A stretch of 60,428 nucleotides of DNA, filler included, from Stramenopiles sp. TOSAG23-6 (taxonomy: Eukaryota): assembly GCA_900128565.1 (NCBI GenBank). It is 4 parts of 4 records of this genome, joined end to end, with 100 filler letters (N's around TTAATTAATTAA, not from the genome) between each part and the next. Parts side by side here need not be neighbours in the genome. Positions count along the whole stretch, not along the records: positions 30,290 to 45,325 come from LT636130.1; 3 more parts are not named here. The stretch is one strand, 5' to 3'. The notes beneath the pieces were generated by a model, which was not told the DNA's origin, did not search any database, and saw nothing but the letters and a program-made list of their open reading frames with translations. Below are positions 15,146-60,428 of the stretch, piece after piece (position 1 is the first letter of the stretch; each line of letters starts with the position of its first letter). Made by a program: the position numbers and the translations under genes.

Positions 15146-15256
15146 TTTTTATTTTTTTTTTTTTTTTTTTCTAAAAAAAAATTTTTTTTTTTTTGGAAAA
15201 TTTTGTACCTAACAATTTTTTTTTTTTTACTAAAAAAATATTTTTCCAAAATATAG
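15146..15256 (+). mobile_element. Introner-like intron, 3' part, ends AG
   Basis: GTACCTAAC..ATATTTTTCCAAAATATAG. Confidence 0.75.
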
Positions 15257-24784: not shown

Positions 24785-26397
24785 CTTGATTCGTCTTTGA
24801 TCTCCACCTCGATGGGGCTAGATCTACTATAGGATTGGAATGAACAAATTTCTTAACTTGGGGAGGTAAAGCTGCTAATCGCGTCGGCTTTGAAAATCGT
24901 CCAATACGATGACTAATATTCTTGTGATTGACTAAATGTAACCAAGGATGTAAATTTACTTTTCGGAAAGAATGTTGTGCTTGTTGTTCTTTTTTAAACT
25001 TTTCTGAATGCTTAACGCGTTTCATTGAAGGCAATAAAGAGCCAACTGAATCGCGAGACCTGACAGAGCTTGCAGATGTAGGTCGAATATCTTCATCATC
25101 ACCATTATCTGAATCATAATCGTACTTGTTTTCAAACCAAGATTGTTTAACTTCATCGGTACTTTTTAATTCAGAAGCAATAATATCTGTTACAATTTTC
25201 CCTGACATTTCATTTTGTGTTTTATGAAGAACCAACGAACGGTCTATTGTTCCTTCATCTGTTGGACCTTTATCGTTTACAACTGGAGTTTCGTTTTCAT
25301 ATATTGTGAAACATATTAAAAAAAAATCGTTAGGTACGAAATTTTTTTACGAAAAAAAAAAAAAACTAAATTTAAAATTTAGATGAAAAATTGAAAAAAC
25401 ATTAAACATACCGATGCAATTATATTTGATTTCCATGCTACTTTGACTTTAGAATGAAATTTTGCATTTTGCCTTTCTAGAGATCTAAATTTTTCTCTTT
25501 TCTTTTGTATTTTATTTGAAGTGAGGCAAGATGTCAAATTCAATTATTATTTTAGATATTGTAACTAGTGTAGTTTGTTTTGAGTTGTATGAAAAACAAA
25601 GTAAAGAAAATTTCAAAATATATTTCAAAAAATATTTCAAAAAATTTAAATAATTTTTTGTAAGTACAAAATTGCTTATGAAAAAAATATATATGATGAC
25701 GTACATTTTCAAATATTTCACTTTTTTCAGATGGATCTATTCGTAGTGGAGGTTTTGGTTGTATTTTATCATTTTTACTTTTATTTGTTTTGCGCAGTTC
25801 TCTCGCGGATGCTTTGGCTGCTTTTACGATTGGTGACATTTCATTTTTGGAGGATTTCTTTCCTATATGATGATGAGTCTGTGAAAAGTATACTATTTTT
25901 TTATCTCCATTTGAACGACGACGTAATTGGAATAATTCACTAATTGAATTTGGTATGTTTACACCTGAAATTTCATTACCTGTTGGATTCACATCCATAT
26001 GTAATAGTTTTTTATCATAATGTACACGATCTGCACTTCCTAATATAGATGAAAGTGCAAAACATGCGTTGAGATATACTTTATGATCGTCCTGAGATTT
26101 TTGTTCAGAGACAACCCTCATGAGATTTGTCAATAACGGCACGGCAGAGGTCCGGTTTCTTATCCTCTCTCTCATATATTTACTTTTCCCTGACAATCTA
26201 CTAAGTGCCCGTGCAGCTAAACCACGAATCCACAAAACTTCACCACTATCAAGTGCTGAAAAAATGCTATTAAGATCATTTTCGTTAATATGGGGCGGGC
26301 CATCTTCACTTCCAATATCAGCTAACCAATGGCGAAACTTTCTTCCCCTTCCTGAGGGAGCTTCTGAGACAGGACGAGAACGAATCATCTGTTTCAT
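24723..26397 (-). CDS. ARM-like hypothetical protein with two introns and an apparent frameshift; possibly the 5' part of the IQ gene
   Basis: ARM-like helices (AARALSRLS, NACFALSSI); frame break near 25545; overlaps the IQ ORF in another frame. Confidence 0.45.
25299..25411 (-). mobile_element. Introner-like intron, GT..AT
   Basis: Consensus present; joins IIAS to ENETP in frame. Confidence 0.75.
25584..25704 (-). mobile_element. Degenerate introner-like intron, GT..AC (3' end uncertain)
   Basis: GTACGT donor, TTTTGTACTTAC core, duplicated TTTTGAAATAT block. Confidence 0.55.
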
Positions 26398-28916: not shown

Positions 28917-28972
28917 TATGTCAGAGGCTATATTTTCTTCAATATATTTGTATATAAAACAATAATTTATTT

Positions 28973-30289: not shown

Positions 30290-30344
30290 TACAAAATTTC
30301 GTACGAAAAAAAAAATAAATTTGAAATTCATAATGAAAACGTAC
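30290..30344 (-). mobile_element. Introner-like intron, 5' part
   Basis: GTACGT donor and core; truncated by gap. Confidence 0.75.
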
Positions 30345-31141
30345 TCTTTGTTGTTGTATTTGGTATACTATCAAACTGTCTATGACAAATATAAACAGCA
30401 CTAGCGCCCCCCACAGAGAAAATTTCTCTTGAAATGTCAATGGATGACGGTCCAGCGCCTAATACAACAATTCGTTTACCTTTATGTATTTTGGAAAAAT
30501 ATTTCAAAAAAAATCTAAAAAAATTGTTAGGTACAAATTTTCGTATGAAAAATAAATTCGAAATTGAAAAAAAAAATAAAACATACATATTCTTTAGGTG
30601 TGTCATATGCAATTGAGTGCTTTACAGTAAAGGTGCAAGTATCTCTTCCAGGGATTGACGGTTCGTAGGGCACTTGAAAGTGACCATTCGCAATAACAAT
30701 TGCGTCAAACACCTCAGTGTTCTCCTCTCCTTCTTGTGACTTTGTTTTAACTCTCCAACAAGTTGAGTCGTTTGGACAACTCTCTTTTCGTGCAGTGCTA
30801 ACATTGGTTACACGTGTACCAAGTGAGATACACGACAATAAGGAATGTGTTTTTGCGTAAGATTTAAGGTAGTTAGCAACGATGTTGTGACCAACGAAAC
30901 TTTTTGTACACTCTGGAAAAGGACTCCCCATGAAAGCCATTATCTCCTTTGGCAGATTCGTCTGTAAATTTTGATACATTGCTTGACCAGCAGAAGAGCC
31001 GTGGTTCCATACTCCACCTACACTTTGCTCTGCTTCGAAACACTTTACACAAACTCCTGCTTCACGAAGACGTCGTACAGCAGAAAGGCCTGCAGCTCCC
31101 GCGCCAATGACTGCCACATTTGTAGAGGTGATCTTTTTCAT
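30345..31141 (-). CDS. Flavin-containing monooxygenase, 3' truncated; exons 31141-30587, 30483-30345
   Basis: GAGAAG, GGVW, IANGHF, HSIAY; splicing gives PKEY|KGKRIVVLGAGPS. Confidence 0.9.
30484..30586 (-). mobile_element. Introner-like intron, GT..AT (AT duplicated)
   Basis: Restores the context of the NADPH-binding motif. Confidence 0.9.
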
Positions 31142-34722: not shown

Positions 34723-37700
34723 TTATAGTTTATTTACAGGAGGTACACCTAACAAATGCAAACCAGTTTGAAGTGTAACTAATGTATCTCTGCACAACGC
34801 TAATCTAAAATCTTGCCGGGAATGATTAATGATTCGTTCATTGCTATAAAAACTATGAAATAAAGTAGCTAAACGAAACAAATAATTGCACAGTAAATGT
34901 GGGGTTAGTTCAGCGACAACTGCATCAATCACTTCAGGAAACTGCGATATAGCGAGAGCAACTTGCCTTTCTCGCATATTTAGATGATCGACAGATTTCG
35001 TGTCATTGGTTGTTGTATCGAAGAAGTTGGATACGTCGCCACTGTGTTCACTACGGGCAAATATGGAATTTATTCTTGCACATGCATACAATAATGATAC
35101 TGACGTGTTTCCTTTACTCTCCATCATCCGCGTTACATCCGCTGCATAATCACTTTGTCGATGATGAGATAATTCAAAGTAACGTAAAGCGCCTTGCATT
35201 AATGCATCTGCTGATTCCATAACAAGTTGGTTCGAATTGCATTCATTCATGTCATCCTTCTGAATTGACCGTTCTACAGTGTCTAAAGCAACAGAATGAA
35301 CTTCAGACAAAAGCGACGAGAGAGTAGGTACATTTCCATCTCTAGAACTCAATGTATTTTGGAAAAATATTTCAAAAAATATTTCGTTAGGTACAAAATT
35401 TCGTACGAAAAAAAAATTCAAATTTTCAAAAAAAATAAACATACATTTTCGATCATCTTTCCCTTTAACAAGACCGAACGAAACATGTTCTAATGAAGGA
35501 AGACCAAATTTGTTTGGTGAAGCTTCTAACCAACCAGCTAGCTTAGCAACATGAAATAAATTTGAAAAGTGCTTTTTTTGACTAGAATCGACAACGTATA
35601 TGTATTTTGGAAAAATATTTCAAAAACAAAAACTAAAATTTGTTAGGTACAAAATTTCGGAACNAAAAAAAAATCNAANTTNAAAAAAAAAGAAAACGGA
35701 CATGATTCTATCGTATGCAGTTTGGTTGATTAGAGTATTGTTATTAGGAATGCTTGTACGGTCGATTTCACTGCCTAAACCTAAACGGTACGAATTGTGA
35801 AAAAATATTTAAAGAAAAAAAACGTTAGGTACGAAATTTCGTATGAAAAAAAAATTAAATTGAAATTCATATAAAAAATACACCTTAAAGCAGCTAGATC
35901 AGTTGTTGCATATAGATGAGTAGTATCACTCTTTTCAATTATCATTGGTGGCTGTTCTTCATCTTTTCTACCCTCAGTACTATTTTTACAATCTTTATTA
36001 TTCATTTTCCGGTGTTTTTTTTTTCTTCTATTATTATCTAATTTATTTGTTTCATTTGCAAAATAATCTCCAGCAATTACTAGAGCGGCATCCTGATAAG
36101 ATAACAAACCAGAAGTATTCAAATCAGCAATCATCTCAGAGATTAATGGAGCATAAACAGATTCACCCAGTTCCTCCGCAACAACATGTATTTTGGAAAA
36201 ATATTTCAAAAAAAAATCGTTAGGTATAAAATTTCATACGAAAAATAAATTCGAAATTGAAAAAAAATAAAACATACATCTAGTCTACTAAAAATATCAT
36301 GAAATCCTTTACGACTTGCAGTACACAACTGTAACCATGAGTGTCGGATACTTCCTACTCTATTGTCATCGTATTTTGAGCTGTTTTGAAGAGCGCGGAG
36401 AACTTTGGAAACTTTTTCCTTAAATATGGGATCATTATCCGCACGTGTATTTTGGAAAAATATTTCAAAAAAAAATCGTTAGGTACAAAATTTCGTATGA
36501 AAAAAAAAATTCGAATTTGAAAAAAAAATAAAACATATGTTCTTTTGATGCAGTATAAAAGGAACTCAATTCGGCTGGAGTAGGTAAAATTGTTTCTGTC
36601 TCAGTCATTTGATTTTTCATGAATAAAGGTTGCCTATCTTCAGGAAGATCATGAATAAACGCAACTACCATTGCAATTGGAGTACCCCAGTCACCAACAT
36701 GACTTACCCGAGTGACTTTATTCCCGGAAAACTCTAGAATTCGTGCAAGTGTATCACCAATGACAGATGACCGTAAGTGCCCGACGTGCAATTCTTTACT
36801 CATATTGGGTGATGCAAAATCTAGTAAAATATTTTTAGAGTTTTGGTCAATCGGTTCAACAACTTTTTGTTTCAAAGACATTTCCGGATTCCTAATTTTC
36901 AAAAGCATTGCAATTGCTTCATCTTTTTCTTTTTTCACCTCATCACTAATATCCAATGATCGTAATTGCTTTAACTTACTTTTTATTTTATTTACCTTCT
37001 CGACATTTTCATGCTCATACGGGCAATGTCGACACTCAGAACCACAACAAGTACCACGATTTTTATGAAAGAAACTTGTCAACACTTGAAAACCAGTCAT
37101 TGGATCTATATACGAACTTTCTTTACTATTACACGCATTTTCGTGCAATAATTGAATTTCTGGGGACAGCAAAGCTTTCTTTTGTGTTCTAGTCGTGTCA
37201 GGTACTCTGGGTCTGGTAGGAATCATTTTACTTACATTATTCGAACTCCATAATGAGAAAGAAACTTTCGATTTATATGAAAGCAACCATGGATCATCTA
37301 TGTATATATTAATAAATCCAGGCCCAGAGACTTCTACCTTTGATATACACGGATCCGCACATTGTCTTATGTTTGTAGCGAGTTCATTTGCTATGTCCTG
37401 AGGTCGACGTTTTTCTAATGAAGCTAATCCAAGAGCAGTGTTGCACTGATAATCCGCATCAGTATTTCCATTTGCAAGTGATACTCTAGAGGCATGAATA
37501 TCAGTATCAGCAGAACTAACACGTCGTAACACACCAACTCCACCCGGAGAAGATGAATTGAGTGCTTGTTTGACTATAGAGCGGAGGTGTGACAGGATAG
37601 ACGTTGGAAGTTGTATTGATTTGCAACTACTTGAGCTTTCCGTTTTGATGCACCTACGCTGACGAAATAAAATATGCTTTACCCTAATTCGACTAACATG

Positions 37701-37724
37701 AGACAACGAACTACTCAGAAACAT
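34723..37724 (-). CDS. RARS: Arginyl-tRNA synthetase (organellar-type N-terminus); exons 37724-36539, 36444-36278, 36185-35882, 35789-35702, 35599-35445, 35351-34723
   Basis: SPNMSKELHVGHLRS (HIGH), HVGDWG, GES-Y, YATTDLAALRYR, IYVVD..QKKHF, KLSSRDG, YACARI, DALR domain. Confidence 0.93.
35352..35444 (-). mobile_element. Introner-like intron, GT..AT (AT duplicated)
   Basis: Restores KLSSRDG. Confidence 0.9.
35600..35701 (-). mobile_element. Introner-like intron, GT..AT (AT duplicated)
   Basis: Restores DRIIYVVD. Confidence 0.9.
35790..35881 (-). mobile_element. Introner-like intron, GT..GT (GT duplicated)
   Basis: Restores DLAALRYRL. Confidence 0.9.
36186..36277 (-). mobile_element. Introner-like intron, GT..AT (AT duplicated)
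   Basis: Restores RLDV..GESVY. Confidence 0.9.
36445..36538 (-). mobile_element. Introner-like intron, AT..AC (AC duplicated)
   Basis: ATATGT donor; restores SKERADND. Confidence 0.85.
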
Positions 37725-38032: not shown

Positions 38033-39263
38033 ATGAGAATATTTGCCCGTTCTAATTTGGTTTGGCTCTTCCGTTGTTCACGTCAAAATAGGTGCAAACC
38101 TCGTATGTTACTATCCAGTAATGTTCGAATGATTTCTTCTACTGCAAGTGTTTTGCTCCGATCGAGCAAGGGTGAGGATGGATTCGGTCGTTTGGCACCG
38201 TTATTAGATGGCGTTAAGAAAGACCCCAAACCGGAAGATCTTGGATCTGCTGTAAGTGACTTTCCAAAAGTACTTGAAGAAGTTGCTGCGCAAGGTCGAG
38301 CAAAAATGGATGCCTTTAAGTTTAGTCTTGAAGCACTTAAAGTAATGAAAGAGCAGGATGATATTGACGACGATACTTTGGAATACTGTGCTGCCATTGC
38401 AGGCAGTGCAACAGCTGGGCGATGGTATGAATTTTGTGGTGGTGAGAATGGTGAAAATGATGGCTTATTGGATCTTATGATGACTCATGACGGTATAATG
38501 CCAGATGCTTTTACGGCTTCGTGTGCAATTGAGGCACACTATCGTGGTGGCGAAGCTTCATTGGGTTTGGACTTATTTTGGGATATTCTTTCTTTTGAAG
38601 CACCTGCAGAAGATCAATTCGGCTATAAAAATATTCTGAAGAAGTTTGAAACACAATTAAAGTTCTCTGCATCCGAAGAAGAAAAAATGCGAATAGAAAA
38701 AAAAACGAGTGTAGACAATCAACAATTATTGAAAAAAACAGTGTTGTTAGATCTGGAAAGTGCAAAAAATCTATTGAAATATCACAATCCTGAACATATA
38801 TGCGTATACAATTCTGCGATTAATAGCTGTAGTGCATTGCAGAATATTTCAGATGATGAAAGGGCGTCAAATGTATTAGATATCTTAAAGGAAATGTTTC
38901 GAAATGGTGTTCGCCCAAACGAACAAACGAATGTACCTAACCCTAACCCTAATCATGAATTTCAAATTTATTTTTTTTGTACCAATTTTCGTACCTAACA
39001 AAAATATCAAGTTTTTGAAATATTTTTTCACAATATATCTATCGTTGAAGAATTGTTTTGAATCAAAATCAGACAATAATGTAAGCCAAGTAGAAGCTGA
39101 GGCATTGCTTTCAAATATCGTTGATGTTCATTTAGATGCTGTCGATATGGTCTCAAATATGGAATCAAATAGGGAATATTATGAAACGAAAGAAGAAATT
39201 AATAAATCCGAAGACGAAAGGATCTCTCCCCGCTGGTGGCATTCGCTCTACAAATCATCCTAA
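38033..39263 (+). CDS. PPR-like protein, likely mitochondrial; exons 38033-38932, 39039-39263
   Basis: GIMPDAFT; VYNSAINSC..LKEMFRNGVRPNEQT PPR-like motifs. Confidence 0.7.
38933..39038 (+). mobile_element. Introner-like intron, GT..AT, with (CCCTAA)n at its 5' end
   Basis: Core consensus present; frame restored. Confidence 0.75.
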
Positions 39264-40478: not shown

Positions 40479-42594
40479 ATGGATATTTTTACGTTATCGC
40501 TTACTATAATTAAGTCTATTCCTAGGCGTTGTAATGAGCAGGTCTTTGTTTTCACAAACAAACGAGTTCCAGAGTCCATCAGAAAGGTAGCCTGGATGTA
40601 TCGCTTTGGTTACGTATTGACTCTTGTTCTTCTCACATGGTTAGTATTTGAGGTACCACACTCAAATCTTTGGGATACTAATAGAAATGACTTGCGGTGG
40701 TTTATCTTATTTATATCACTTTCACCTATCTCATACTTTTCTGTTCAAGCATCAGACCCAGGGTTTCTTTCTGCAGATATTCTCTCTGCAGTAGGGTTAC
40801 TTCCTGGTAGTGGCGAAAACGAGCGACTAGTATCAAATGATACTGGTATTGCGAATATTAAGATGAATCAATCTCAAGGTCAAGAAGTAGCAGATTCCAA
40901 GTTCGTTGATATTGAAATGGTCGGCTCAGCTATTGATGCGAGTAATCTAGAAACCAAAACAACAAAAGACGGTAAAAGAATTGAAATCGAGGACAATATT
41001 TCTTCAAAAAAACGCAGACTTGAAGCACTTAAAATGAAAAGAAATTTAATAGAAGAGAAAAAGAGTATTGTTGATCAAGAGATTCGAGACATTGGTAATG
41101 AAGAAATATATAGTAAAAGAAGCAGAAATAAGAATAGATCAGTAAAGCCTTGGAGACAAACTGTCTCAGAGAATACTTGTACGTTTTTACAATTTGAATT
41201 TTTACCAATATTTTTTTCATAGTAAATTTTGTACCTAACAATTTTTTACAAAAAAAAATATTTGTTTTCACACTACTTGGGACTCCAGCACAGATAGCGA
41301 TGACGGACTTGGTTCAGATATTGAGGAAGCTCTTAGTAGACAAGGTTTAGATAAACTTTTAGTGTGTACTAAAAATATTAAAAATACTAAAAACGAAGAA
41401 AAAAATTCCTCGATGTGTCAACCCGTTACCGGGTTCCAACCCCACAGAAATACTAAAAATGAAGAAAAAAATTCCTCGATGTGTCAAGGAAACAATCGTT
41501 TGGCGAATAATGATAAATTTCTCCGAAAAGTTAAGATAGGTCGTAAAAAAAAACATAGAATTGAAATGCCATTGCTTCGAGCACGTTGGTGTTATCATAG
41601 CGAACGATTAGTAGCAAAGTATGACCATGTAGGTTCTCATACTGAATTTCAAATTGTTTTTTCGTACGAAATTTTGTACCTAACAAATTTTAGTTTTTTT
41701 TTTTTAAATATTTTTTCATAGTGCATCATTGCTTTGTTTTAGGGACAACTATTGGAGGTCGAAATCATTTTCGATTTTGGTTGTTTCTATTTATTCATTT
41801 GATAACAGTAATGTATGCAATTATTTTAATTAATAGTGGATTTCGAGAAAATGTACTTGGCCAAAGTTTGTTTTCATCATTCATTTTCATTTTTTTTACT
41901 ATGAAAATTTTGTACCTAACGAATTTAAAAAAAAAAGAAAAATATCTTTTCACAATACAAGTTGGTTAAGTACAAACGGTCTTGCCCTTACAGCTTTAAT
42001 AATCATATCATTATTCTTTCTTCCAATTTGTGGACTTTTTGTCTTTCATTCTTTTCTTGCACTGACAAATTCCACGACATATGAAATAAGTCGAGGATGT
42101 TCATCAAAGAGAATTCGTAGGAGACGTGCTAGAGATTTTCGAAAACGAAGGCGTAAAGTCGGTTTAGATGACGGATATCTTCAGGATGATACATACACTA
42201 GTAGAAAAGATAAATTCCATTTCCAACCCTGTGACTTGCCGTACTCAAAAGGTCCCATTACAAATTGTCGTTTGTTTTGTTGTTTCAACCAATGTAGTGG
42301 AGATCCAGTAACTACACAAGCGCATTTAGCTGCATGTATGTTTTATTTTTTTTTCAATTTCGATTTTTTTTATAGTGCATTTTGTACCTAATAATTTTTT
42401 TTAGATTTTTTTTTGAAATATTTTTCCAAAATACATACAAACGACTTAAATTAATGAAGACTACGGGTCAATCATCTGTGAATGTTTCTATTGAATGGTT
42501 GCCTCATATATGGACTGCCCCGATACCATTTGACCGTGATACTGATGATATTTCAAGTAATTTATGGGAGAATAAATATTGGCGTTGTTGTTAA
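40479..42594 (+). CDS. DHHC palmitoyltransferase; exons 40479-41178, 41279-41628, 41727-41865, 41961-42335, 42437-42594
   Basis: SDPG; splicing restores KYDHHCFVLGTTIG..N; NSTTYE motif; start codon uncertain. Confidence 0.9.
41179..41278 (+). mobile_element. Introner-like intron, GT..TT (TT duplicated)
   Basis: Consensus present; frame restored. Confidence 0.8.
41629..41726 (+). mobile_element. Introner-like intron, GT..AT, inside the DH|HC motif
   Basis: Removal restores the catalytic DHHC. Confidence 0.93.
41866..41960 (+). mobile_element. Introner-like intron, GT..AA (AA duplicated)
   Basis: Consensus present; frame restored. Confidence 0.85.
42336..42436 (+). mobile_element. Introner-like intron, GT..AT (AT duplicated)
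   Basis: Consensus present; frame restored. Confidence 0.85.
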
Positions 42595-42788: not shown

Positions 42789-45325
42789 TTAAAACTTTTC
42801 TAGTTGAGTAGTTACATCATCGGTAGGTAGAGACAACGATTCAGTGCACCAAAGAGCTTGTGCGGCACGACAGACTCATGTATTAAGAAAAATATTTTAA
42901 ATTTTAAATTCGTTAGATACGAAATTTTTATGGAAAACAAAATCTCGAAATTAAAATGAAAATGTACTGTCTGTACCATTATCAACAACACCACCAACTT
43001 CAGGAGTAAACCTAAATGGGGAATTACTACATTGTATTGAATTCATTGCACGGTCACTCATCGGGGTAGTGAGAGTAGTTTGATGAACTTTTAAAGGGGT
43101 CTGCGGAGGCAAATGAGATACATAATTACAATCAATCGAAGAAACCGGAAATTTACCAATATTTTGATCGAGAAATACATTACTTGTATTTCCAATGGAT
43201 TTCGGGTCGTTATTGTTTTGATTTAGATTAGCATTAACATTCATGTTCATATTCATCATTAAATGCATATTCATTTGCATATTATTCAAATCAATACCAG
43301 AAAAATCAGATCCGGCGACTGCGGCTGCGATGGAATCCAAACGATCGGGTTTATTGGGACTTTTAAATGGACTTAATAATTTCTCAAATCCAAGCAAGTT
43401 ATCCATCGTAAGCATTGGCATTTTAATGGGAGATATATTTGTGGTAGTATTATTGTTGTTCATAAAATCTGATGGTAATAGCTGATTTGGATTTAACTTT
43501 TGCATTTTATGTGGAGATTTCCAAGGACTTTCACAAGGAAGTTTACGTTTGTTTCCATGTCCTAAAACTACACTATGGGCGGCAATACAAGCATTAGCTG
43601 CAAAGGAAAGCCAATCAATATAAGGTGTACATGACTGAGGCGAAATGTTGTCAATATGTGTGCTTGCCGATGCCATTTCAACAAGCTGATCTAAGAGAGT
43701 TGCCAGAGTAGATTCAAGAAGTGTCACTGAATTTGGCACAAGATTATGAAGAGCGACAAAGCAAGCCACAACATTTGGATTCACTCGAACAGAAGTAGTA
43801 TTTTTTGTATTCTTTGTCTGGGGAATAAATTCAATATCCGATGAATGAATGGTAATGCGTGCTGATCGTATGCATTCTGTATTTAGTTTTGTATTTTTTT
43901 CCATAATATTGATATAAAGTGAAAATAAAGTTTGACCTCGACGATAAAATTCACTTGCTAGAATATCCATCCATGGTTTAGATTCACTTGTTGAGGTTTC
44001 GCTGGGCTTATTTTGTGATATATTTGAAAATTCTTTAATAGATTTATAACCGTAACCATTGATAGCAAGGTCGAGACGATGTCGAGTCATTCGCAATGCA
44101 TTCGCTAGTTCAGCTTCTTCAGCATCTGATGGTACAACTTTCGACGATTTCGACACCTGGTATGATTTAAGCCACGATAATAAAAGTTTCTCGCTCTGGC
44201 TAGCAATTTTAGGCAGCGTGTTTGTTGTACTTTCCTCAAATGACGCATTCAAAGTAGTCCAAGAACAAAATGCACCTGTTATACGTGACGGTCTAAAATC
44301 TTCTTCGTTTCCACCACCTACACCATTTCTAATAGTTTTGCTAATATTATTTGTAAGAGAAGCAAGCCAATTGCCACCACTGTGTTGACCCAAACCGTCA
44401 ATACGTGGAGCCATTAGAGGATGACCGGTGTTGATAGGGGAAATACACGAAAGATGAGATAATTGTGGATCAATTTGATATGGCTTCGGTGGCGGTGTAA
44501 CAAGTGTTTTTTTACTATCGAATTGTTTCGAACCAGGAACACTAAAGAATAAGGGTAAAGTTCCATTCAAAGACGTTTGTTGCGCATTTATGTTCTCAGT
44601 AAATAAAGGATTCATAGCCATTGGTATTATGGTCTGTTTTCGTGCAATTTCAGCCGGGGGTTCTGAATCTTTTCCATTCATCAGAACTTTACCTAAAAAC
44701 TCAGAAAGAGAACGGGGACCATTATTCATGACAACTTTCCCCTTGTTAGCATCTACCACGGCATCAGCAGGATCTGTTCCATTTTGGGCAGTAGATTCAT
44801 TAAATCTTTTGTTAGTGTTTACAACAGCCGAATAAGCCTTTTTGCTTTTTTTAGCCTTAGGTTTAGGTGGTTTTACCTTTGCGACATTATTTCTCGAGGG
44901 TACTAAAAGACCGAGGGAAATTGCTTCATCATATAGTGGCCTCCAAAGGCGTTTCCTTGCATTTGTAAACCAATTATTAAGCTGCTTAATTGTAATCGAT
45001 GCCTCTGCACGGAGTTCAGCTTTTTGATTATCAGTTGGGTATGGAGATTCGAAATGCTTCGCATCAAGCATCCATTTTTTTAGCACTCGAACAGCTGATG
45101 CTGGGAGCCGAGGATTTTTTCGCCGGCTAGTAGTGGCAGCAGTTGGTTGGTTTCCACCAGAATTTAATTGCTTTTGAACATTTTTGATTTTCTTCTTCGT
45201 CTTTGCACTCTTCGCTTTTGTCACGTATTGTGAAAAAATATTTCAAAAAAAATTCGTTAGGTACGAAATTTCGTATGAAACCAAAAAAAAAAAAATTAAA
45301 TTAGAAATTCATATAAAACATACAT
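42789..45325 (-). CDS. TALE-class (KN) homeobox protein; exons 45325-45324, 45222-42968, 42877-42789
   Basis: LKKWM..SPYPT..QLNNWFTNARKR. Confidence 0.88.
42878..42967 (-). mobile_element. Introner-like intron, GT..AT
   Basis: Core CGTATCTAAC; an open terminal exon follows. Confidence 0.75.
45223..45323 (-). mobile_element. Introner-like intron, GT..GT, splitting an AT|G codon
   Basis: Consensus present; splicing creates an ATG in frame with the ORF. Confidence 0.75.
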
Positions 45326-45801: not shown

Positions 45802-48624
45802 ATGCCTGCTTCTTCTGATAATTTACGCAACATAACATCCGTACATACTTTCCAAGAAGTTCATTGGTCTGGGATTGCATTTGTTGCTTTCACTGATGCT
45901 GTTATTTTTTATGTTGTAGTGTTATCCTTCATCTGTCAACGTTGGTTTCTTTCCTGTAGTCGTCAGAATCGTAAATCGCGTTCATGTACTTTAAATTCTT
46001 TAGTGGATATAAAAAATTTTGTTTTGATGCCGTTGAACGATATTTCTGCCATCTGTGGTGGTAATGTAGCTCTGTATCTTCGATTTGAAATTGAGATAAT
46101 GAAATTGCTACTATTTCTTTCAGTTCTCTGCTGCGGAATTATCCTTCCTTATAACGTTTATATATCAAGATTATTTAGCCCAAACGAGAGTAGTTCACAA
46201 TCCTACATCTTTTCCAAGACAACTGTAGAAACTATACGTATGTTTTATTTTTTTTCAAATTCATTTTTTTTTCGTACGAAATTTTGTACCTAACAAATCT
46301 TAGTTTTTTTTTTTGAAATATTTTTCCAAAATACACCAATAGCATCATCTTCTCTTTGGCTTCACGTTCTTTTTAGCTACATTTTTACCGTAGTTTTATT
46401 TTATTTTTATATTCGTAATTTTCATCCGAATGCTTCTCCAAGAGAACCACTCGAAGCTCGTACAGTATTTGTTAAGAGTGGAATCCCACGAAATATGTAT
46501 GTTTTACTTTTTTGTTTTGTTTTGGTAAAAAAAAAATCGAATTTATTTTTTTCATAGGAAATGTTGTACCTAACATTTTTTTTTTGAAATATTTTTCCAA
46601 AAAACAGTACTGATAGTGATATTGTACAAGGTTTCTTACGAATTGCACTAGTTGAGTTTTATACATACAAGGAAGAGGTTTGTAATAATAGTACTATTGA
46701 TGATATTAATACAAATAATAATACTCATAATATATTTGATTCTCAACTTGAAAATGTAGTGCTTATTCTAGATTTATCTCGTTTAGATGTTTTAGAACAA
46801 GAAAAATCGCAATTATTAAATCAATTAGACAGAAGTCATTTAATTCGTATATTGGAAAAAGAGAATCAAATTCATCCTTTTAGTTCTATTACAAATAATC
46901 AAACGAATTCTGTAGAGGATGGCAATTATAACTCTAACCATAATGATATTTCTCAAAACCCTAACCCTAACCAAAAGAACCAAAAGAACCAAAAGAACCA
47001 AAAGAACCAAAAGAACCAAAAGAATAGTCAATATAATGATGATATATCTCAAAACCCTAACCCTAACCAAATAATACAAGATGCTCATGAACATTCTCTA
47101 CCCTGTTGTTGGGTATTTGGGTTTGAATCGTCGAATGATATTTCTGATGCTTTAGTAGAGCTCCAAGTCAAAAATATACGTGAAGAACAAGCATGTATTA
47201 TCTATAATACTCCATTATATGGAACTGGGAAAGGATTTATAACTTTTGAAACTCAAATCGCAGCTTTGCGTTTCGTATCCAATTTCAAAACATTTTCACA
47301 ATTTGTTAAAAATCATAAAAGTGAAATTGTAGCAAAATGTCATCAACATAGAGATATTTTTACTACTACTACATGTATGTTTTGTTTTTTTTCAATTTTT
47401 TGTCTATTTTTTTTTCAATTTCGAATTTATTTTTTTTTTTTGAAAATTTTGTACCTAACAATTTTTTTTAGATTTTTTTTGAAATATTTTTATGCCTACA
47501 TCTACTACTACTTGTGAAAATATTATTGATTCTCTAATAGACAACAATTCAATAAAAAATGAAACAATAAAAGTATCATCATCAAAGAGTATTATGATTG
47601 ATTCTCTGATAGACAGTTGTGGATCTACATGGAGAGGCATTTCATTAGCTCCAAGGATCAATGATTTAGATTGGCGTAGATTACGGATTCCTACCGTACG
47701 ACGCGTATGTTTTATTTTATTTTATTTTTTTATTTTTTTTTAAATATTTTAAAAATTATTATTTTTTTTTTTTTTTTATACCCTCAAATCATATCTAACA
47801 AAAAATAAAAAATATATTTTTCACAATATCGTTTATACGATTATTATGTATCAATATATGTATTGTTGCTATGTTATTTCTCTGTACAACGCCTACAGCT
47901 GTGTTATCTAGATTGTATGTTGTATTATTTTTTTATTTTGGTAAAAAAAAAAATCGAATTTATTTTTTTCATAGTAAATTTTGTACCTAACAAATTTTTT
48001 TTTTTTTTGAAATATTTTTACAAAATACAAACGTTCACAAAATATTAATGTAATGAGTTACTGGTCAGATGTTATACAATATATTTCTCATTTAGGAAAT
48101 TCATTGGGTGGATTTGGATTGAATAAGGATATGATCTATTCATATACACCTGGTCTTTTATTGTTGATAATTAATGGTGTTTTAGCATATGTTTTGTATG
48201 TGGTTGGGCGTTATGTATGTTTTATTTTTTTTTCAATTTTTTTTTTGTATTTTTTTTTTATAAAAATTTTGTACCTAACAAATCTTAATTTTTTTTTGTT
48301 GAAATATTTTTCCAAAATACATATAGAACCCTGGTTAACATTTTCTGGTTCAGAAAAGTCAATTATGAGAATGACTTTTGCATTTTATATTTTTAATTCT
48401 CTTCTTTTGCCATCATTATCATTAGCATCCGTCGCAGACTTATTAGCAGTTGAAAGAATGCACAATGTTGGTTGTTCACAAAAAGATCCTTTAGGTATGA
48501 GGCATATGGATTATGACATTCATAAGAAGCATACATCTTTCCATCATAATGAATATATACCAATTGGAACACACATGTCCGTTTTCAAATTTTCAATTTT
48601 TCAAATTTTCAAATTTTCAAATTT

Positions 48625-48655
<31 letters not shown>

Positions 48656-49094
48656 ATTACTATAAAAAAATTGTACCTAACAAAAAAATTCTGAAAAAAA
48701 AAAATATTGTTTCACAAAACATATCGGATGAAGGAAAACATTTCTTAAATAATGGTACACATAGATTAATGTGTGAATATTCCATGTTTGGTAATATGTT
48801 TTTACGTGGTGTACGTTTGCAATTTCAAAATTTTAATTTTTTTTTCGTACGAAATTTTGTACCTAACAAAAAAAAAGTTTTTTTTTTGAAATATTTTTTC
48901 ACAATACGTTCAGGAGCATATTTTGTAATATATGTACTACACCGAGCTCATCTTACAAATGCGATAGGCCTTTTACGACTTCCAGAACGAATCCTATTTT
49001 GGTTTCATCGTGGTTCAGCTATTACTAAAAAGGAGAAACAAAACGCTCGTGAAAATTGGCCATTTGAATGTGGTCAACATTATTCAATGTTATT
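45802..49094 (+). CDS. OSCA/TMEM63 (CSC1-like) channel with 9 exons; normal C-terminus not found
   Basis: ALYLRF..IILPYN, LWLHV, RTVFV, GFITF, LAP..DLDW, LCTTP, SGAYFVIYV, FECGQHY. Confidence 0.85.
46238..46336 (+). mobile_element. Introner-like intron, GT..AC (AC duplicated)
   Basis: Consensus present; frame restored. Confidence 0.85.
46497..46607 (+). mobile_element. Introner-like intron, GT..AG
   Basis: Consensus with a canonical acceptor at the same position. Confidence 0.85.
47375..47501 (+). mobile_element. Introner-like intron, GT..AT (AT duplicated)
   Basis: Consensus present; frame restored. Confidence 0.85.
47705..47831 (+). mobile_element. Degenerate introner-like intron, GT..CG
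   Basis: ATCTAAC branch; frame into LCTTP restored. Confidence 0.7.
47915..48030 (+). mobile_element. Introner-like intron, GT..AA
   Basis: Consensus present; frame restored. Confidence 0.8.
48215..48322 (+). mobile_element. Introner-like intron, GT..AT (AT duplicated)
   Basis: Consensus present; frame preserved. Confidence 0.85.
48577..48722 (+). mobile_element. Introner-like intron, GT..AT (AT duplicated), with internal (TTTTCAAA)n
   Basis: Consensus present; frame restored. Confidence 0.8.
48811..48909 (+). mobile_element. Introner-like intron, GT..GT (GT duplicated)
   Basis: Restores LRGSGAYFV. Confidence 0.85.
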
Positions 49095-49186: not shown

Positions 49187-49221
<35 letters not shown>

Positions 49222-49285
49222 TACCAAATTTTGTACCTAATAGAATTTTTTTTTTTTTTTTGAAAATATTTTTTTTACAATACAT
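49095..49285 (+). mobile_element. Double-length, T-rich introner-like segment (possible chimera of two copies)
   Basis: GGACGT-like donor, long poly-T, GTACCTAAT..ACAT end. Confidence 0.5.
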
Positions 49286-49664: not shown

Positions 49665-52358
49665 TTACACATCCGTTGTTGCGTACGGTGCAGATGTAAT
49701 GACTGGTGATGATTTCATCTGATTACTATCTGAATTACTTTCATTCAGTATTTTTGTTGTTTTTTGTTGTTGCGCAATGGTAAAAACACAATCTTCTTCC
49801 AAAGTTATTCCCAACAGAACGTTTCGTATTAACTCCAACTCTTTCATAATTTCTTTTATACGTGTCTCATCTCTACTTATCGTAGATTTTAATTCCACAT
49901 CTAAAACATCCAAAAGTTTATCCATGTAATTTTAGACAAATATTTCAAAAAAAATCATAAAAAATTTGTTAGGTACAAAATTTTTTACCAAAAAAAAAAA
50001 TGTAGACAAATTTTGAAATTTTGAAAAAAAATGAAAATGTACATATATGCACCAAGGCGAAGATTGCGAGCTTTAGAAGCGTTCAAAGTAGCAATTGATG
50101 CAGCATTATGACTCATCGTTGATGACGTCATCGATGAATTGCCTTTATCAAGAACAACCGTGGCAGATGCGACATGTTGAAAATTAAATGGTTTAGAAAT
50201 TTCATTTTGTTTTGTGTGTTTTGATTGTTTTGTGTGTTTTGGTTTCCCATTATATACACTATACGATTTGATTTCGTCTTGTTTATTTTGTTTATTTTGT
50301 TTATTTTGTTTATTTTGTTTATTTTGATGTTTTGATAGATTTCTAGGGTTAGGGTTACCATTTATTTTTGTTGATGTTTCTCCTAAATTTTTCACAGTTT
50401 CAGTGACGGATTTTTTCATTGACATAAATGCATCACTCATCCATGCACCTGTGTTGACTAATGACGAATCAACACCATTTACATTACTTTTATTACTTTT
50501 ATGACTTTTATGTCCAGAATTTTTCATTATAGTAGTAGGGTTAGGGGTTGTTGATGTTTCAGATGAATTAGGGTTAGGGTTTTCAGATGAGTTTGGTTGT
50601 ATCCAATCTAAATGTTTCGATTGATTTAATTTCTGTTTGGGACGTAAAACACTGAGAGATTTTCCTGATTGAATTAGTGTATACATGTAATGTGAAAAAA
50701 AATATTTTTTTTTTTTTTTTTTATTTTTTTTTGTTAGGTACGAAATTTCCTATTAAAAAAAAAAATTGATAAAAAATTGATAAAAAATTGAAAATGTAAA
50801 ACGTAGTGACAATTTACATTTGTTGAGCTTGGCTTGTAAATTTTGTGACATCTTCAACAGGTGGATATTTCATTAAACGCTTCAAAGCGTATGCATAATC
50901 TCTCTCTAATAAGAAATCTCTGACATGTAAAAGCCTACAGGTATGAAAAATATGTTGTAGAATTAGGGTTAGGGTTAGAGTGTACAAAAGAAAAAATCAA
51001 ATTGTTAATTTGTTGATTAGGGTTAGGGTTACACACATTGCAACGGAAACTAATTCTATAGATTTATCTAACGAGGAACCATTTGAACGCATGGCAAATA
51101 ACTTATCCCAAAGTGATAAAACATCTTCAATATGAAATTCTCGCCCAAACATTAAACGAGCCCATTTCATCATATATTGTGAAAAAATATTTTTAAATTT
51201 TTTTAAAATTTTTTTTAAAAATCATTAGGTACGAAATTTCGTACGAAAAAAAAAATAAATTCGAAATTGGTAAAAAAATAAAACAAACACATATAACTGT
51301 GGTTCTATACCGAGTTTCAAAAGACGTTTGAATAACTCTTCATCTATTTCTTTTAACCATTTATGTTGTACTCGGAGACAAAGACCAAGAATTGGTGAAA
51401 AAGATTCATAATTTGTGGTTGAGTTACTATTTTTTGACGTTGAAGAAGAGTGACTTGACATATCCCGAGTAGCTCCAAGTCTTTTTTCTCGTTTTAAGTT
51501 TTGAAGAACTTTTTTTCTTTCTGTTTCAGATTGTACACGAAATAAAGGTTTTAAATCTTTCATGATTTCGTCAAATAACCAAAATGCATCCACTTCCACA
51601 TTATTAGAGTCGAGTATAGACTCAATCAGTGTCAATATTTCCTCCCTACAAAAATTGTCGTTGTCATTATTTGTACTCTTATTTTGATTCCTTTTTTTTT
51701 CACTACAGCTACTAGACAATGTTGTTTTATCACACTCTAGGGTATATATAATAGGAGCAAGGATCTCATGCATGCCTTGTCTATACGATGTGTCTTCATG
51801 TATCTTACACCATACAAATAAAATGTTTAACATCATTTTTCGTAATGGTTCAGATTCAAAATAATTGCCACAGCCTGTAGGATATAACCGACCAAGATCT
51901 TTGTTAATTTCTTCAACTAATTCTTTTCCTTCATAGAATTTTTGCCATGGGCTTTCTGTCTCAAGTGATAGAGGATTACACATGGCCAAATCAGCATTAT
52001 TCATTCCGATTTTGGTCGGATCAGGCATATGCTTTTCCTTATAACGAGAATACTCCTCGCGTTTTTGGTCAAGATGGACAACCCAGGAACTTCTTGGCAT
52101 ATCACGGGGTATATATCCTAGAAAAACTTTCCAGCAGATAGACCGTATTTTCCCTTTGCACAACGTACCATTCATTGTAGCATCGTACAAGGACTTGAAT
52201 TTTCCAACACTGTCCAGCGAAGCAGAAGGAGAATCTGGAAAACATAAAGAAGAAAAATCTGCTTGCACATCAACGGACGACCGCAAAGCAAATGAGGGCC
52301 TACGTCCACTATCAACATTTCCCTCCCGAGTATATACAATACCTTCAGAATTATTCAT
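49665..52358 (-). CDS. TBC1D5-like Rab-GAP; exons 52358-51289, 51171-51037, 50934-50818, 50684-50043, 49923-49665
   Basis: RSICWKVFLG, NPLS..W, KDLGRLYP, YRQGMHEILAP, WARLMFGREF, AMLLHVR. Confidence 0.88.
49924..50042 (-). mobile_element. Introner-like intron, GT..AT (AT duplicated)
   Basis: Core present; frame restored. Confidence 0.8.
50685..50817 (-). mobile_element. Introner-like intron, GT..AT (AT duplicated)
   Basis: Removes an in-frame stop; core present. Confidence 0.8.
50935..51036 (-). other. Intron, GT..AG, built partly of (CCCTAA)n
   Basis: Restores VAMLLHV; ATATTTTT lies 11 nt before the end. Confidence 0.85.
51172..51288 (-). mobile_element. Introner-like intron, GT..AT
   Basis: Restores EPQLYxMKWARL. 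Confidence 0.85.
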
Positions 52359-59485: not shown

Positions 59486-60362
59486 TCATAGTGATGTTCT
59501 CTGATAAGGGCATCTACATATAGGACACAATAAAAGTTCATATATGTTGAATCGTTCAAATGCTTTAATGCAATCCATATGAAAAACATGTGAACAACTT
59601 AGAATACATTGTTGCTTAGGGTTAGGGTTAGGGTTAGGGTTATTTATCTCTATAGTCCTCTCGTCACAATTAAACTCATTCATGCATATAGGACATTCTG
59701 TATCATTTCGATCTTTTGCTTTTTTCTTGACTTTATTCCATTGTACACCGCAACATAATCCAACAGACTGTGAACTACTAGGGTTAGGGTTATTATCTAC
59801 ACTGGGTTGTGAAGATGTACTAGGGTTAGGGTTTCTTCGTGAAGAATTTCCAAAAATAACACGAGATAAAGCTAAACCTCGATCTACTTCTTGAAACAAT
59901 GATTCAATAGAATTATCCTGTAATTGTCTCATAGTATTTAAGCGTGTTGTATTATTTTGTAATGACGATATAAAAAATTTACGTCGCAATTTCGAATTTC
60001 CACCTCCAGATTTATAAAGTGTTTCTAATTTTGATCTATACAAATATCTCGCGTGTGCTCCTCTCCATAGTGTAGCAATACGTGTCGCACATGTATTGTG
60101 AAAATATATTGTGGGAAAAATCTAAAAAAAATTGTTAGGTACAGAATTTTTTTACCAAAAAAAAAAAATATTTGAAATGTATCATTAGGGTTAGGGTTAC
60201 AAACATCGTCGTCTATGTCTTTTGGCACCTTCAGTACATAGTTTCTTTTGATATAAGCTGTGGCGACAAATTGGACATTTTCGGTCTTTACTCTGAACAA
60301 ATCTTTCAAAGGATGCTAAGCAATTTCGATGGAAAACATGTGAACAACTTAGAATGACTTGT
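59486..60362 (-). CDS. RNF32-like RING-IQ-RING protein, 3' part; exons 60362-60205, 60090-59486
   Basis: LSCSHVFH..CPICR twice, flanking an IQ-like motif ATRIATLWRG. Confidence 0.85.
59616..59642 (-). repeat. Interstitial telomere-like (TTAGGG)4 within CDS, encoding NPNPNPNP
   Basis: Read directly from the sequence. Confidence 0.9.
60091..60204 (-). mobile_element. Introner-like intron, GT..AT (AT duplicated), with (CCCTAA)n
   Basis: Joins RING1 to the IQ motif in frame. Confidence 0.85.
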
Positions 60363-60428
60363 TCGTATTGTGAAAAAATATTTCAAAAAAAATCTAAAAA
60401 AAATTGTTAGGTACAAAATTTCGTACGA
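60363..60428 (-). mobile_element. Introner-like intron, 3' part, ends GA
   Basis: Consensus core and 3' motif present. Confidence 0.75.

What the first reader, a model, noticed from the sequence alone, without database searches (positions are those of the whole stretch)
34723..36538. Large family of introns with non-AG 3' splice sites (about 40 copies across the window; five in ArgRS alone)
Seen in sequence: a mostly 90-146 nt element, GTAYGT-(T-rich)-TTCGTACGAAATTTTGTACCTAAC-(T-rich)-TTGAAATATTTTTCCAAAATAC-NN, recurs in all four scaffold pieces. It is always sense to the host gene and always inside coding sequence. Excising it restores diagnostic motifs: ArgRS DLAALRYRL, DRIIYVVD and KLSSRDG; the DH|HC catalytic motif; FMO EY|KGKRIVVLGAG; TBC WARLMFGREF. 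Of 38 visible 3' ends only 4 are AG; the rest are 23 AT, 3 AC, 3 GT, 2 AA, 1 TT, 1 CG and 1 GA. Established: GTAYGT and CTAAC are U2-type donor and branch signals, and U2 acceptors are almost always YAG. Inference: this lineage splices most of its introns without an AG, implying a modified 3' splice-site recognition system.
Basis: partly seen in the sequence, partly recalled or inferred. Interest (0 to 1): 0.96.

Follow-up and report, generated by a model that had tools for sequence, protein, structure and literature searches.

The report
Transposon-born introns lacking AG ends
A marine protist's genes are peppered with copies of one small mobile element that must be cut out as an intron, yet almost none ends in the near-universal AG, because the intron's last two letters are the duplicated target site.

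Summary
One ~90-146 nt element occurs 37 times in the window. It is always sense to flanking open frames, and five copies sit in the arginyl-tRNA synthetase (ArgRS) gene.

- **Excision rule:** removing each copy from its GT to 2 nt past its ..ATAC end restores the frame. This gives gap-free alignment with homologues at all 5 ArgRS junctions.
- **3' ends:** of 32 copies with both ends resolved, they read AT 23, GT 3, AC 2, AA 2, TT 1, AG 1.
- **New point, target-site duplication:** those last two letters repeat the two exon letters before the GT in 16 of 23 copies (p about 3e-5). They are therefore a 2-bp target-site duplication, and the family is an "introner" whose 3' splice site falls on the duplicated target.
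- **AT-AC reading:** shifting both borders 2 nt upstream puts stop codons in 2 of 8 informative cases. The GT..NN parse gives none.
- **Non-family introns:** one older intron outside the family is also GT..AT, and one is GT..AG.
- **Published models:** the ArgRS and papain gene models are wrong at the non-AG junctions.
- **RNA evidence:** direct RNA proof is missing. The metatranscriptome contigs were ambiguous.

Verdict: a new variant of known non-canonical introners, inferred from sequence rather than shown in RNA.

The parts
36445..36538 (-). ArgRS intron 1, family copy; starts ATATGT, ends ..ATAC+AC; flanking dinucleotide AC/AC
36186..36277 (-). ArgRS intron 2, family copy, GT..AT, flanks AT/AT
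35790..35881 (-). ArgRS intron 3, family copy, GTATTT..TTC+GT, flanks GT/GT
35600..35701 (-). ArgRS intron 4, family copy (holds 4 single N), GTCCGT..AT, flanks AT/AT
35352..35444 (-). ArgRS intron 5, family copy, GT..AT, flanks AT/AT
34723..35351 (-). ArgRS exon 6 (last, with stop)
35445..35599 (-). ArgRS exon 5
35702..35789 (-). ArgRS exon 4
35882..36185 (-). ArgRS exon 3
36278..36444 (-). ArgRS exon 2
36539..37724 (-). ArgRS exon 1 (upstream limit taken from the tblastn match of the published model; start codon not set by me)
8281..8372 (+). family intron in M14 carboxypeptidase gene, GT..AT, flanks TG/AT; 3' motif degenerate
20100..20228 (-). family intron (EF-hand/B-box gene), GT..AT, flanks GT/AT
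20361..20461 (-). family intron, GT..AT, flanks AT/AT
25299..25411 (-). family intron, GT..AT, flanks CG/AT
25620..25704 (-). degenerate family intron, GTACGT..AT (no AC before the AT)
30484..30586 (-). family intron in flavin monooxygenase gene, GT..AT, flanks AT/AT
38933..39038 (+). family intron with CCCTAA-type repeats near its 5' end, GT..AT, flanks AT/AT
41179..41278 (+). family intron (DHHC gene region), GT..TT, flanks TT/TT
41629..41726 (+). family intron splitting DH|HC, GT..AT, flanks AT/AT
41866..41960 (+). family intron, GTTTGT..AA, flanks AA/AA
42336..42436 (+). family intron, GT..AT, flanks AT/AT
42878..42967 (-). family intron (homeobox gene), GTACAT..AT, flanks CA/AT
45223..45323 (-). 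family intron next to an assembly gap, GT..GT; upstream frame not testable
46238..46336 (+). family intron, GT..AC, flanks AC/AC
46497..46607 (+). family intron ending in AG at the same +2 position, flanks AT/AG
47375..47501 (+). family intron, GT..AT, flanks AT/AT
47705..47829 (+). degenerate family intron, GT..AT (a second GT 9 nt upstream is equally in frame)
47915..48030 (+). family intron, GT..AA, flanks TT/AA
48215..48322 (+). family intron, GT..AT, flanks AT/AT
48577..48722 (+). family intron with internal tandem repeats, GTCCGT..AT, flanks AT/AT
48811..48909 (+). family intron, GTACGT..GT, flanks GT/GT
49924..50042 (-). family intron, GTACAT..AT, flanks AT/AT
50685..50817 (-). degenerate family intron, GTAAAT..AT, flanks AT/AT
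51174..51290 (-). family intron in TBC/RabGAP gene, ends AT; two equally open parses 2 nt apart
57784..57874 (+). family intron in TRAPPC13 gene, GTTGGT..AT; its 5' border lies in a ~15-nt direct repeat of downstream exon sequence
58237..58345 (+). degenerate family intron in TRAPPC13 gene, GTACGT..AT; upstream frame ambiguous (127 vs 113 codons)
60091..60204 (-). family intron with CCCTAA-type repeats near its 5' end, GTTTGT..AT, flanks AT/AT
15187..15256 (+). family copy whose 5' end lies in an assembly gap; ends ..ATAT+AG
49215..49285 (+). family copy with very long T runs; 5' border not resolved
2..87 (-). family copy cut by the window start (3' end missing)
30290..30344 (-). family copy cut by an assembly gap (3' end missing)
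60365..60428 (-). family copy cut by the window end (5' end missing)
5025..5118 (+). papain-family protease gene, intron 1: not detected by the family profile, GT..AT, no flanking duplication
5210..5311 (+). papain-family protease gene, intron 2: canonical GT..AG with CCTAAT branch-like motif

Best explanation
**What the element is.** It is a short non-autonomous mobile element that becomes an intron when it lands in a gene in the sense direction, that is, an 'introner'.

**What it carries.** It carries a yeast-like 5' splice site (GTAYGT). It also carries a branch site (..ACCTAAC) 31-45 nt from its 3' end, T-rich filler, and a conserved 3' end (..CAMAATAC).

**How the non-AG end arises.** Insertion duplicates 2 bp of target, mostly AT. 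The pre-mRNA is then cut before the element's G and after the downstream copy of the duplicated pair. Element plus one duplicate are removed, so the original coding sequence is restored to the letter. The intron's last two letters are therefore whatever the target was: AT in about 7 of 10 copies, AG only by accident.

**What this implies.** The major (U2-type) spliceosome of this marine stramenopile must place the second cut without reading an AG. It probably does so relative to the conserved ..AAUAC end and the branch site.

**Shown here:**
- the family, its orientation and the duplication;
- exact restoration of frames and of homology;
- the GT..NN parse as the only parse that keeps all genes open.

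**Inferred, not shown:** removal happens in RNA, it is done by the spliceosome, and the element moved as DNA.
For: **Family.** There are 31 core hits against 0.12 expected and 35 nhmmer hits. All copies are sense to the flanking open frames.

**Frame test.** With borders chosen only by motif, 22 of 25 usable copies join the best upstream and downstream frames at exactly +2 after ..ATAC. Chance is 1 in 3. A 26th copy borders an assembly gap, so its upstream frame is untestable.

**Homology.**
- ArgRS spliced by this rule gives 564 codons with no stop. All 5 junctions are gap-free against 5 homologues.
- In M14, the Pfam profile runs 3-151 then 151-284 across the intron.

**Target duplication.** The two letters before the GT equal the last two intron letters in 16 of 23 copies, against 8.1 expected (p=3.5e-5). 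Six of these matches are not AT (AC x2, GT x2, TT, AA), against 0.83 expected (p=2.5e-5).

**Test between parses.** In 8 introns whose two flanks differ, the GT..NN parse gives 0 stops. Shifting both borders by 1 nt gives stops in 2, and shifting by 2 nt gives stops in 2.

**Retention is not viable.** 29 of 32 copies would shift the frame or add stops if kept.

**AG is skipped.** 7 of 23 copies have an AG 10-18 nt after the branch motif that would break the frame if used.

**Phases.** The phase counts are 13:12:7, so there is no sign that exon context is needed.

**Older introns.** A non-family intron in the papain gene is also GT..AT, and its neighbour is GT..AG. Both are gap-free against 8 homologues.

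**Independent DNA.** Contigs of a second, independent DNA data set (X3) run from unique exons into the elements. The elements are therefore not an assembly artefact of one data set.
Against: **No junction read.** No RNA read or contig was seen to join two exons.

**RNA contig ends.** Four ends of RNA-library contigs lie at exon-element borders:
- one leaves the genome sequence exactly at a predicted donor (35882, with 6 further letters I could not see);
- one stops 1 nt short of a donor (38931);
- two run into introns (36191, 4-6 nt in; 42348, 13 nt in). These two molecules were unspliced there, or the library holds DNA.

**Database search.** Proteins spanning the junctions were sought and not found. 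Only an unspliced open frame and the published models came up.

**Weak selection signal.** Differences between the window and other genotypes are 10 synonymous to 17 non-synonymous. That is only weak evidence of purifying selection.

**Duplication not universal.** 7 of 23 copies lack the matching flanks. The terminal inverted repeat is only 4 nt (GTAT/ATAC) and shows no covariation. No transposase or autonomous copy is in the window.

**Circular cases.** For four copies the +0 border was chosen because it is in frame, so those four are not independent tests.
Confidence: 0.68

Rival explanations
1. The introns are really AT-AC introns. Both borders lie 2 nt upstream, so the intron starts with the upstream copy of the duplicated pair (mostly AT) and ends right after the conserved ..ATAC. 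The A-first/C-last pairing known from AT-AC introns would then apply (recalled knowledge).
For: Wherever the two flanks match (16 of 23), this parse gives the same mRNA and cannot be told apart. It puts the cut directly after the strongly conserved AC, which is present in 22 of 23 copies at that position. The single copy that begins with A (36445-36538) ends in C under the main parse. This shows that the A/C logic may matter here.
Against: Where the flanks differ, this parse gives in-frame stops in 2 of 8 introns (8281-8372 and 42878-42967). The GT..NN parse gives none. It would place the 5' cut 2 nt away from the conserved GTAYGT. It would also make the first two intron letters variable (GT, CG, CA, TT, AA, TG). 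The branch motif lies 31-45 nt from the end and the 5' site is GTATGT rather than RTATCCTT. The introns are therefore not U12-like either.
Confidence: 0.1
2. The splicing is as in the best explanation, but the family spread through RNA, either by reverse splicing of excised introns or by capture during repair of staggered breaks. It is then not a cut-and-paste DNA transposon, and the flanking match reflects a preferred site or repair of a 2-nt overhang.
For: All 37 copies are in transcribed sense orientation inside coding sequence. The inverted termini are only 4 nt, with no covariation. No transposase is in the window. One copy (57784-57874) sits in a ~15-nt direct repeat, as break repair would give.
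Against: Six non-AT matching flanks against 0.83 expected are what a target duplication gives, not reverse splicing. The window is 87.5% long open frames. Few intergenic or surviving antisense copies are therefore expected anyway. Sense-only survival follows from selection alone.
Confidence: 0.12
3. The elements are not removed from RNA by the spliceosome at all. Either the genes are dead, or the elements are cut out of DNA in the working nucleus, or an endonuclease that reads a fold removes them. The last is what has been proposed for hairpin-bounded introns of Amoebophrya and euglenids.
For: Two RNA-library contigs run into introns. No spliced product was found in the protein collections. 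The dN/dS-like signal is weak.
Against: At least 15 unrelated genes keep long open exons (up to 1452 codons) that are joined in frame only by exact removal. Strict sense orientation, a conserved GTAYGT and a conserved CTAAC point to the spliceosome. No consensus fold was found: -0.4 kcal/mol. The terminal helix shows no covariation, 0.099 against 0.098 in shuffles. Bulk environmental DNA (X3) also carries the elements.
Confidence: 0.08

Closest known systems
[quoted passage not shown] Also dinoflagellate introner-like elements (bioRxiv 10.1101/2020.10.14.339549, passages read).
   Same: A multi-copy short element in many unrelated genes, with a target duplication. One splice site lies in the element and the other on the duplicated target. 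Removal of the element plus one duplicate leaves the mRNA unchanged.
   Different: In those families the duplicated target is 3-8 bp and must supply a canonical AG (or GY). Here it is 2 bp, mostly AT, and supplies AG in only 1 of 32 copies. The recruited site is therefore not a canonical splice site.
Non-canonical introner elements of the parasitic dinoflagellate Amoebophrya (PMC7789003, passages read)
   Same: A marine protist with repeated introns, short direct repeats overlapping the exon/intron borders, a majority of non-GT-AG introns, and gene finders that fail on them.
   Different: The Amoebophrya elements have 8-20 nt inverted repeats forming hairpins, 3-5 nt direct repeats and no conserved terminal dinucleotide at either end. 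Here the 5' GT and the branch motif are conserved. The inverted termini are only 4 nt, and no fold is supported.
Non-canonical introns of the tunicate Fritillaria borealis (PMC13326754, abstract and introduction read)
   Same: A U2-type spliceosome is held to remove non-AG introns on a genome scale. That system shows such a shift is biologically possible and names U2AF as the place to look.
   Different: It is an animal, and fewer than 10% of its introns are GT/AG, with non-GT 5' ends as well. Duplicated U2AF subunits have been shown experimentally there. Here only the 3' end departs, and the machinery is unseen.
AT-AC introns of the major and minor spliceosomes (recalled, no call)
   Same: They are non-AG 3' ends handled by a spliceosome. 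The one copy here that starts with A ends with C.
   Different: The 5' site here is GTATGT rather than ATATCC/ATAAGT, and the branch-to-end distance is 31-45 nt. The shifted AT-AC parse fails in 2 of 8 informative introns.

Membership tests
Introner (transposon-derived spliceosomal intron family) | Many sequence-similar introns at unrelated positions in unrelated genes | tested here: met
   37 copies lie in at least 15 genes, including ArgRS, M14, FMO, DHHC, TBC, TRAPPC13 and a homeobox gene. Pairwise identity reaches 87%, with a median of 60%.
Introner (transposon-derived spliceosomal intron family) | Transposon hallmarks: target-site duplication and/or terminal inverted repeats | tested here: met
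   There is a 2-bp duplication: 16 of 23 flanks match against 8.1 expected, and 6 non-AT matches against 0.83 expected. The inverted termini are only GTAT/ATAC and show no covariation.
Introner (transposon-derived spliceosomal intron family) | Removed from the transcript by splicing | tested here: inconclusive
   Frames and homology require exact removal. The RNA contigs gave one end consistent with splicing, one stopping at a donor and two running into introns.
Introner (transposon-derived spliceosomal intron family) | Recent mobility: presence/absence between genotypes, or an autonomous partner | not testable with these tools
   No genome is held. Only 15 of 675 joints were printed. No transposase domain is in the window.
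Canonical U2-type GT-AG intron | 5' GT with a U1/U6-complementary hexamer, plus a branch motif | tested here: met
   In the 23 copies, G is at +1 in 22, T at +2 in 23 and G at +5 in 20. CTAAC or CTAAT lies 31-45 nt from the end.
Canonical U2-type GT-AG intron | 3' terminal YAG, the first one downstream of the branch | tested here: not met
   Only 1 of 32 copies ends in AG. 7 of 23 copies hold an upstream AG that cannot be the site used.
U12-type (minor) intron | 5' RTATCCTT, and TCCTTAAC within about 10-20 nt of the 3' end (features recalled) | tested here: not met
   The 5' consensus is GTATGTTTT. The branch motif is ACCTAAC, 31-45 nt from the end. No minor snRNA could be sought.
Hairpin-bounded non-canonical introns (Amoebophrya introners, euglenid non-conventional introns) | Extended complementarity between the intron ends that brings the borders together | tested here: not met
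   The consensus fold is -0.4 kcal/mol with no terminal helix predicted. A named 6-pair terminal helix scores no better than shuffles.
DNA-level eliminated sequences (ciliate-type) | Excision from DNA, independent of gene orientation | tested here: not met
   Orientation is strictly sense. The elements are present in two independent DNA data sets. Element-free DNA was not specifically excluded.

The most novel reading that the evidence does not exclude
In this uncultured marine stramenopile, the major spliceosome no longer reads the last two letters of the intron. It sets the second cut relative to the branch site and an intronic ..AAUAC signal, 2 nt further on. Any insertion of this 2-bp-duplicating element into a sense strand is then spliced out cleanly. 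That tolerance let the element colonise nearly every gene, at about one copy per 1.6 kb here. The habit predates the current family, because a degenerate non-family intron is also GT..AT. If so, this is a natural system in which 3' splice-site choice is uncoupled from AG while the 5' site and branch stay textbook.
Probability: 0.45. Interest if true: 0.9.

Novelty: new variant of a known kind. Interest (0 to 1): 0.78.

Why it matters
**AG at intron ends.** An AG at the intron end is among the most constant signals in eukaryotic genes. Known genome-scale exceptions (Fritillaria, Amoebophrya, euglenids) also scramble the 5' end or rely on hairpins.

**What is different here.** Only the 3' end departs, and the reason is visible: it is the footprint of a mobile element. 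The lineage therefore looks like a clean natural test of how the second splicing step finds its site. It would also test whether a relaxed 3' site is what lets introners flood a genome.

**Practical consequences.**
- The public ArgRS model for this assembly carries intron-encoded residues and lacks conserved motifs.
- The papain model loses 11 conserved residues at the GT..AT intron, while the GT..AG intron beside it is modelled correctly.
- Functional inventories drawn from such models would undercount genes.

**Prior reports.** No paper in the held library links MAST-3/Nanomonadea with introners or non-canonical introns (searches; passages). Supplements were not seen.

Tried and rejected
- **RNA proof.** The element is so repetitive that 675 joints were found and only 15 printed, all of them cross-copy joins. 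No exon-exon joint could be read. The depth figures in element bins are sums over all copies, so I did not use them as copy number or as a splicing ratio.
- **Protein collections.** A search with ArgRS exon 5 among shorter proteins found nothing. A whole-library search with papain exon 1 found only a 147-aa unspliced open frame, plus the published model through its cluster.
- **Metagenome contig scan.** A scan with ArgRS exon 6 found only 29-33% identical relatives (loci L001-L003, not used further). No empty sites or spliced copies came of it.
- **Rfam.** No hit in the window, so no snRNA could be inspected.
- **Whole genome.** None is held, so U2AF, Prp8, Slu7, Prp18, snRNAs and an autonomous element could not be sought.
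- **RNA fold hypotheses.** A terminal hairpin or a bulge-helix-bulge was considered. Neither is supported.
- **Synonymous vs non-synonymous differences to other genotypes.** 10 against 17 among 27 coding differences. This is too few and too weak to use.
- **Simple 3' rules.** Rules such as 'first AC' or 'first TAC after the branch' were considered by eye. I dropped them because subfamily copies with ..CACAATAC, or with an early TTTTAC, break them.
- **Other non-family introns.** At 24723-24817 the sequence does not look like an intron and may be a frameshift. 53396-53602 and 26406-26730 look intergenic.
- **The p16-Arc match at 14063-15097.** It lies in a repeat protein and told nothing.
- **Tool problems.** One paper search failed on a term that was too long and was not repeated.
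Full report
**What is there**

Region 34723-36538 lies on the minus strand of an arginyl-tRNA synthetase (ArgRS) gene. Five AT-rich inserts of 92-102 nt interrupt it, and all five share one sequence plan.

- The 18-nt core around the branch-like motif, with up to 3 mismatches, occurs 31 times in the window against 0.12 expected.
- The 3' motif occurs 17 times against 0.06 expected.
- A profile built from 10 well-formed copies finds 35 copies. Two more degenerate copies came from pattern scans, giving 37.
- The window is several contigs joined by N-linkers. It is 26-41% G+C, and 87.5% of it lies in stop-free frames of 80 codons or more.
- A protein search labels the ArgRS as an annotated coding sequence of a marine stramenopile group 3 (MAST-3) assembly. 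Its nearest named relative is an oomycete.
- No whole genome is held for the window.

**Orientation and exact removal**

In 33 of 35 profile hits the long open frames flank the element on its own strand. The other two became clear once their borders were set. No antisense copy was seen.

I fixed the 5' border at the best GTAYGT-like hexamer and the element's 3' end at the best ..CAMAATAC match, without looking at frames. I then asked which 3' offset joins the best upstream frame to the best downstream frame.

- Of the 26 copies evaluated, one borders an assembly gap, so its upstream frame cannot be tested. That leaves 25 usable copies.
- In 22 of the 25 the answer is +2 after the C. Chance would give one third.
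- Four further copies lack the AC and are in frame at +0. They also end in AT, but that border was chosen by frame and is not an independent test.

Homology supports the same rule:

- ArgRS spliced by this rule is 564 codons without a stop. It aligns with five homologues without a gap at any of the five junctions.
- Pfam profile coordinates run on across the M14 carboxypeptidase intron, 3-151 then 151-284.
- If the inserts were kept, 29 of 32 would shift the frame or bring in stop codons.

**The 3' ends**

For the 32 copies with both ends in the window, the last two letters are AT 23, GT 3, AC 2, AA 2, TT 1, AG 1. A copy whose 5' end lies in a gap ends in AG.

- The branch-like CTAAC (or CTAAT) lies 31-45 nt from the end, with a median of 40.
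- 7 of 23 copies hold an AG 10-18 nt after it. Using that AG would destroy the frame.
- Splice phases are 13:12:7.

**Where the odd ends come from**

The two exon letters before the GT equal the last two intron letters in 16 of 23 copies.

- Shuffling the partners gives 8.1 matches (p=3.5e-5).
- Six matches are not AT (AC twice, GT twice, TT, AA), against 0.83 expected (p=2.5e-5).

This is the signature of a 2-bp target-site duplication. The element itself runs from GTAT.. to ..ATAC. What is removed is the element plus one copy of the duplicated pair, so the original coding sequence is restored. That is the logic described for introners, which carry one splice site and take the other from the duplicated target (passages read). 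The difference is that here the recruited pair is not AG.

**Which border is real?**

A matching duplication means the mRNA alone cannot say whether the intron is GT..AT or, shifted 2 nt, AT..AC. The shifted version would be a familiar kind of intron. Eight introns have flanks that differ and are therefore informative:

- The GT..NN parse leaves all eight open.
- The 1-nt shift puts stops in two.
- The 2-nt shift puts stops in two: the M14 intron and the homeobox-gene intron.

The 5' hexamer is GTATGT-like rather than the minor-spliceosome type. The branch-to-end distance is also too long for minor introns (the minor-intron features are recalled). I therefore hold that the 5' cut is at the G and that the 3' cut truly follows a non-AG pair.

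The one copy that begins with A (36445-36538) ends in C. That fits the first-base/last-base pairing known from AT-AC introns (recalled). With two C-ending copies among 23, this is only a hint.

**Introns outside the family**

A papain-type protease gene (4489-5959, plus strand) has two introns that the family profile does not detect.

- Intron 5025-5118 is GT..AT with no flanking duplication.
- Intron 5210-5311 is GT..AG.

The middle exon matches Pfam profile positions 35-67, between 3-33 and 68-219. Both junctions are gap-free against eight homologues. So AT ends are not confined to young copies, and AG is still used.

**Structure**

The copies have no supported common fold; the consensus energy is -0.4 kcal/mol. 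A terminal helix made of the duplicated pair plus GTAT/ATAC can form in 82% of cells. It shows no covariation beyond shuffles: 0.099 against 0.098, with 209 of 500 shuffles as high. A hairpin-guided mechanism like the one proposed for Amoebophrya introners is therefore not supported.

**RNA evidence**

RNA evidence is weak and mixed. Two seawater RNA-library runs from one sample hold parts of the stretch. Their contigs cover exons at depth 2-5. Four contig ends lie at exon-element borders:

- One leaves the genome sequence exactly at the predicted donor of ArgRS intron 3 (35882, with 6 more letters that I could not see).
- One stops 1 nt before a donor (38931).
- One runs 4-6 nt into ArgRS intron 2 (36191).
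- One runs 13 nt into the intron at 42336.

DNA contigs of two data sets run 22-58 nt into the elements at the same kind of border. This could mean that spliced and unspliced molecules coexist in the RNA. It is one sample and four ends, so it proves nothing.

Searches of the protein collections found no junction-spanning product. Differences to other genotypes are 10 synonymous to 17 non-synonymous, and none is a stop.

**Consequence for annotation**

The public ArgRS model (629 aa) is wrong at all five element introns. It reads into one intron and skips conserved segments. The public papain model handles the GT..AG intron correctly. At the GT..AT intron it drops 11 conserved residues next to the catalytic cysteine.

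**Known or new?**

Introners, and non-canonical introns on a genome scale, are both known:

- Amoebophrya: PMC7789003, passages read.
- Fritillaria: PMC13326754, abstract and introduction read.
- Dinoflagellate and other introners: two bioRxiv papers, passages read.

I did not find this combination described: textbook 5' site and branch, a 2-bp duplication, and a 3' end that is whatever the target was.

- No paper in the held library links MAST-3/Nanomonadea with introners or non-canonical introns.
- Three genome papers on MAST lineages contain no such statement in their main text.

I rate this a new variant of a known kind.

**What remains open**

- Direct proof of splicing and of the exact borders.
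- How the 3' site is chosen.
- Whether the splicing factors are altered.
- Whether the element moves as DNA.
- How general the pattern is outside this 60-kb window.

Noticed in passing
38933-38960 (+), 60180-60204 (-), about 53400-53415 (-): Telomere-like CCCTAA repeats (AACCCTAACCCTA) sit just inside the 5' end of two family introns. They also occur in the short spacer upstream of the ATP synthase subunit g gene. They resemble a telo-box-type promoter or intron motif (the resemblance is recalled).
   Followed up: no
57770-57900 (+): The TRAPPC13 intron at 57784-57874 has its 5' border inside a ~15-nt direct repeat of sequence that recurs 6 nt into the next exon. This copy seems to have arisen with a longer duplication, which adds about four residues to the protein.
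   Followed up: partly
24723-24817 (-): Two long open frames of what looks like one large gene overlap here in different frames. There is no AT-rich insert and no family copy. This could be a frameshift in the single-cell assembly or a real gene border.
   Followed up: partly
28914-28919 (+): Open frames 28269-28916 and 28917-29756 are in the same frame and separated by a single stop codon. No Pfam family matches either of them.
   Followed up: no
48600-48660, 20170-20215, 49100-49230: Some copies carry internal short tandem repeats (an 8-nt TTTTCAAA-type unit, a TTTTTTGG-type unit) or T runs of more than 25 nt. Copy length is therefore variable, and homopolymer lengths in the assembly may be unreliable.
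   Followed up: no
runs X1 and X3: About 13,000 contig records of the likely source run, and about 10,000 of an independent seawater DNA run, were laid on this 9.6-kb stretch, nearly all on its ten elements. This hints at thousands of copies genome-wide. The tool warns that such figures are not copy numbers.
   Followed up: no
14063-15097 (-): A 344-codon open frame made of ~120-nt tandem protein repeats. It gives a weak partial Pfam match to p16-Arc, which is probably spurious.
   Followed up: partly
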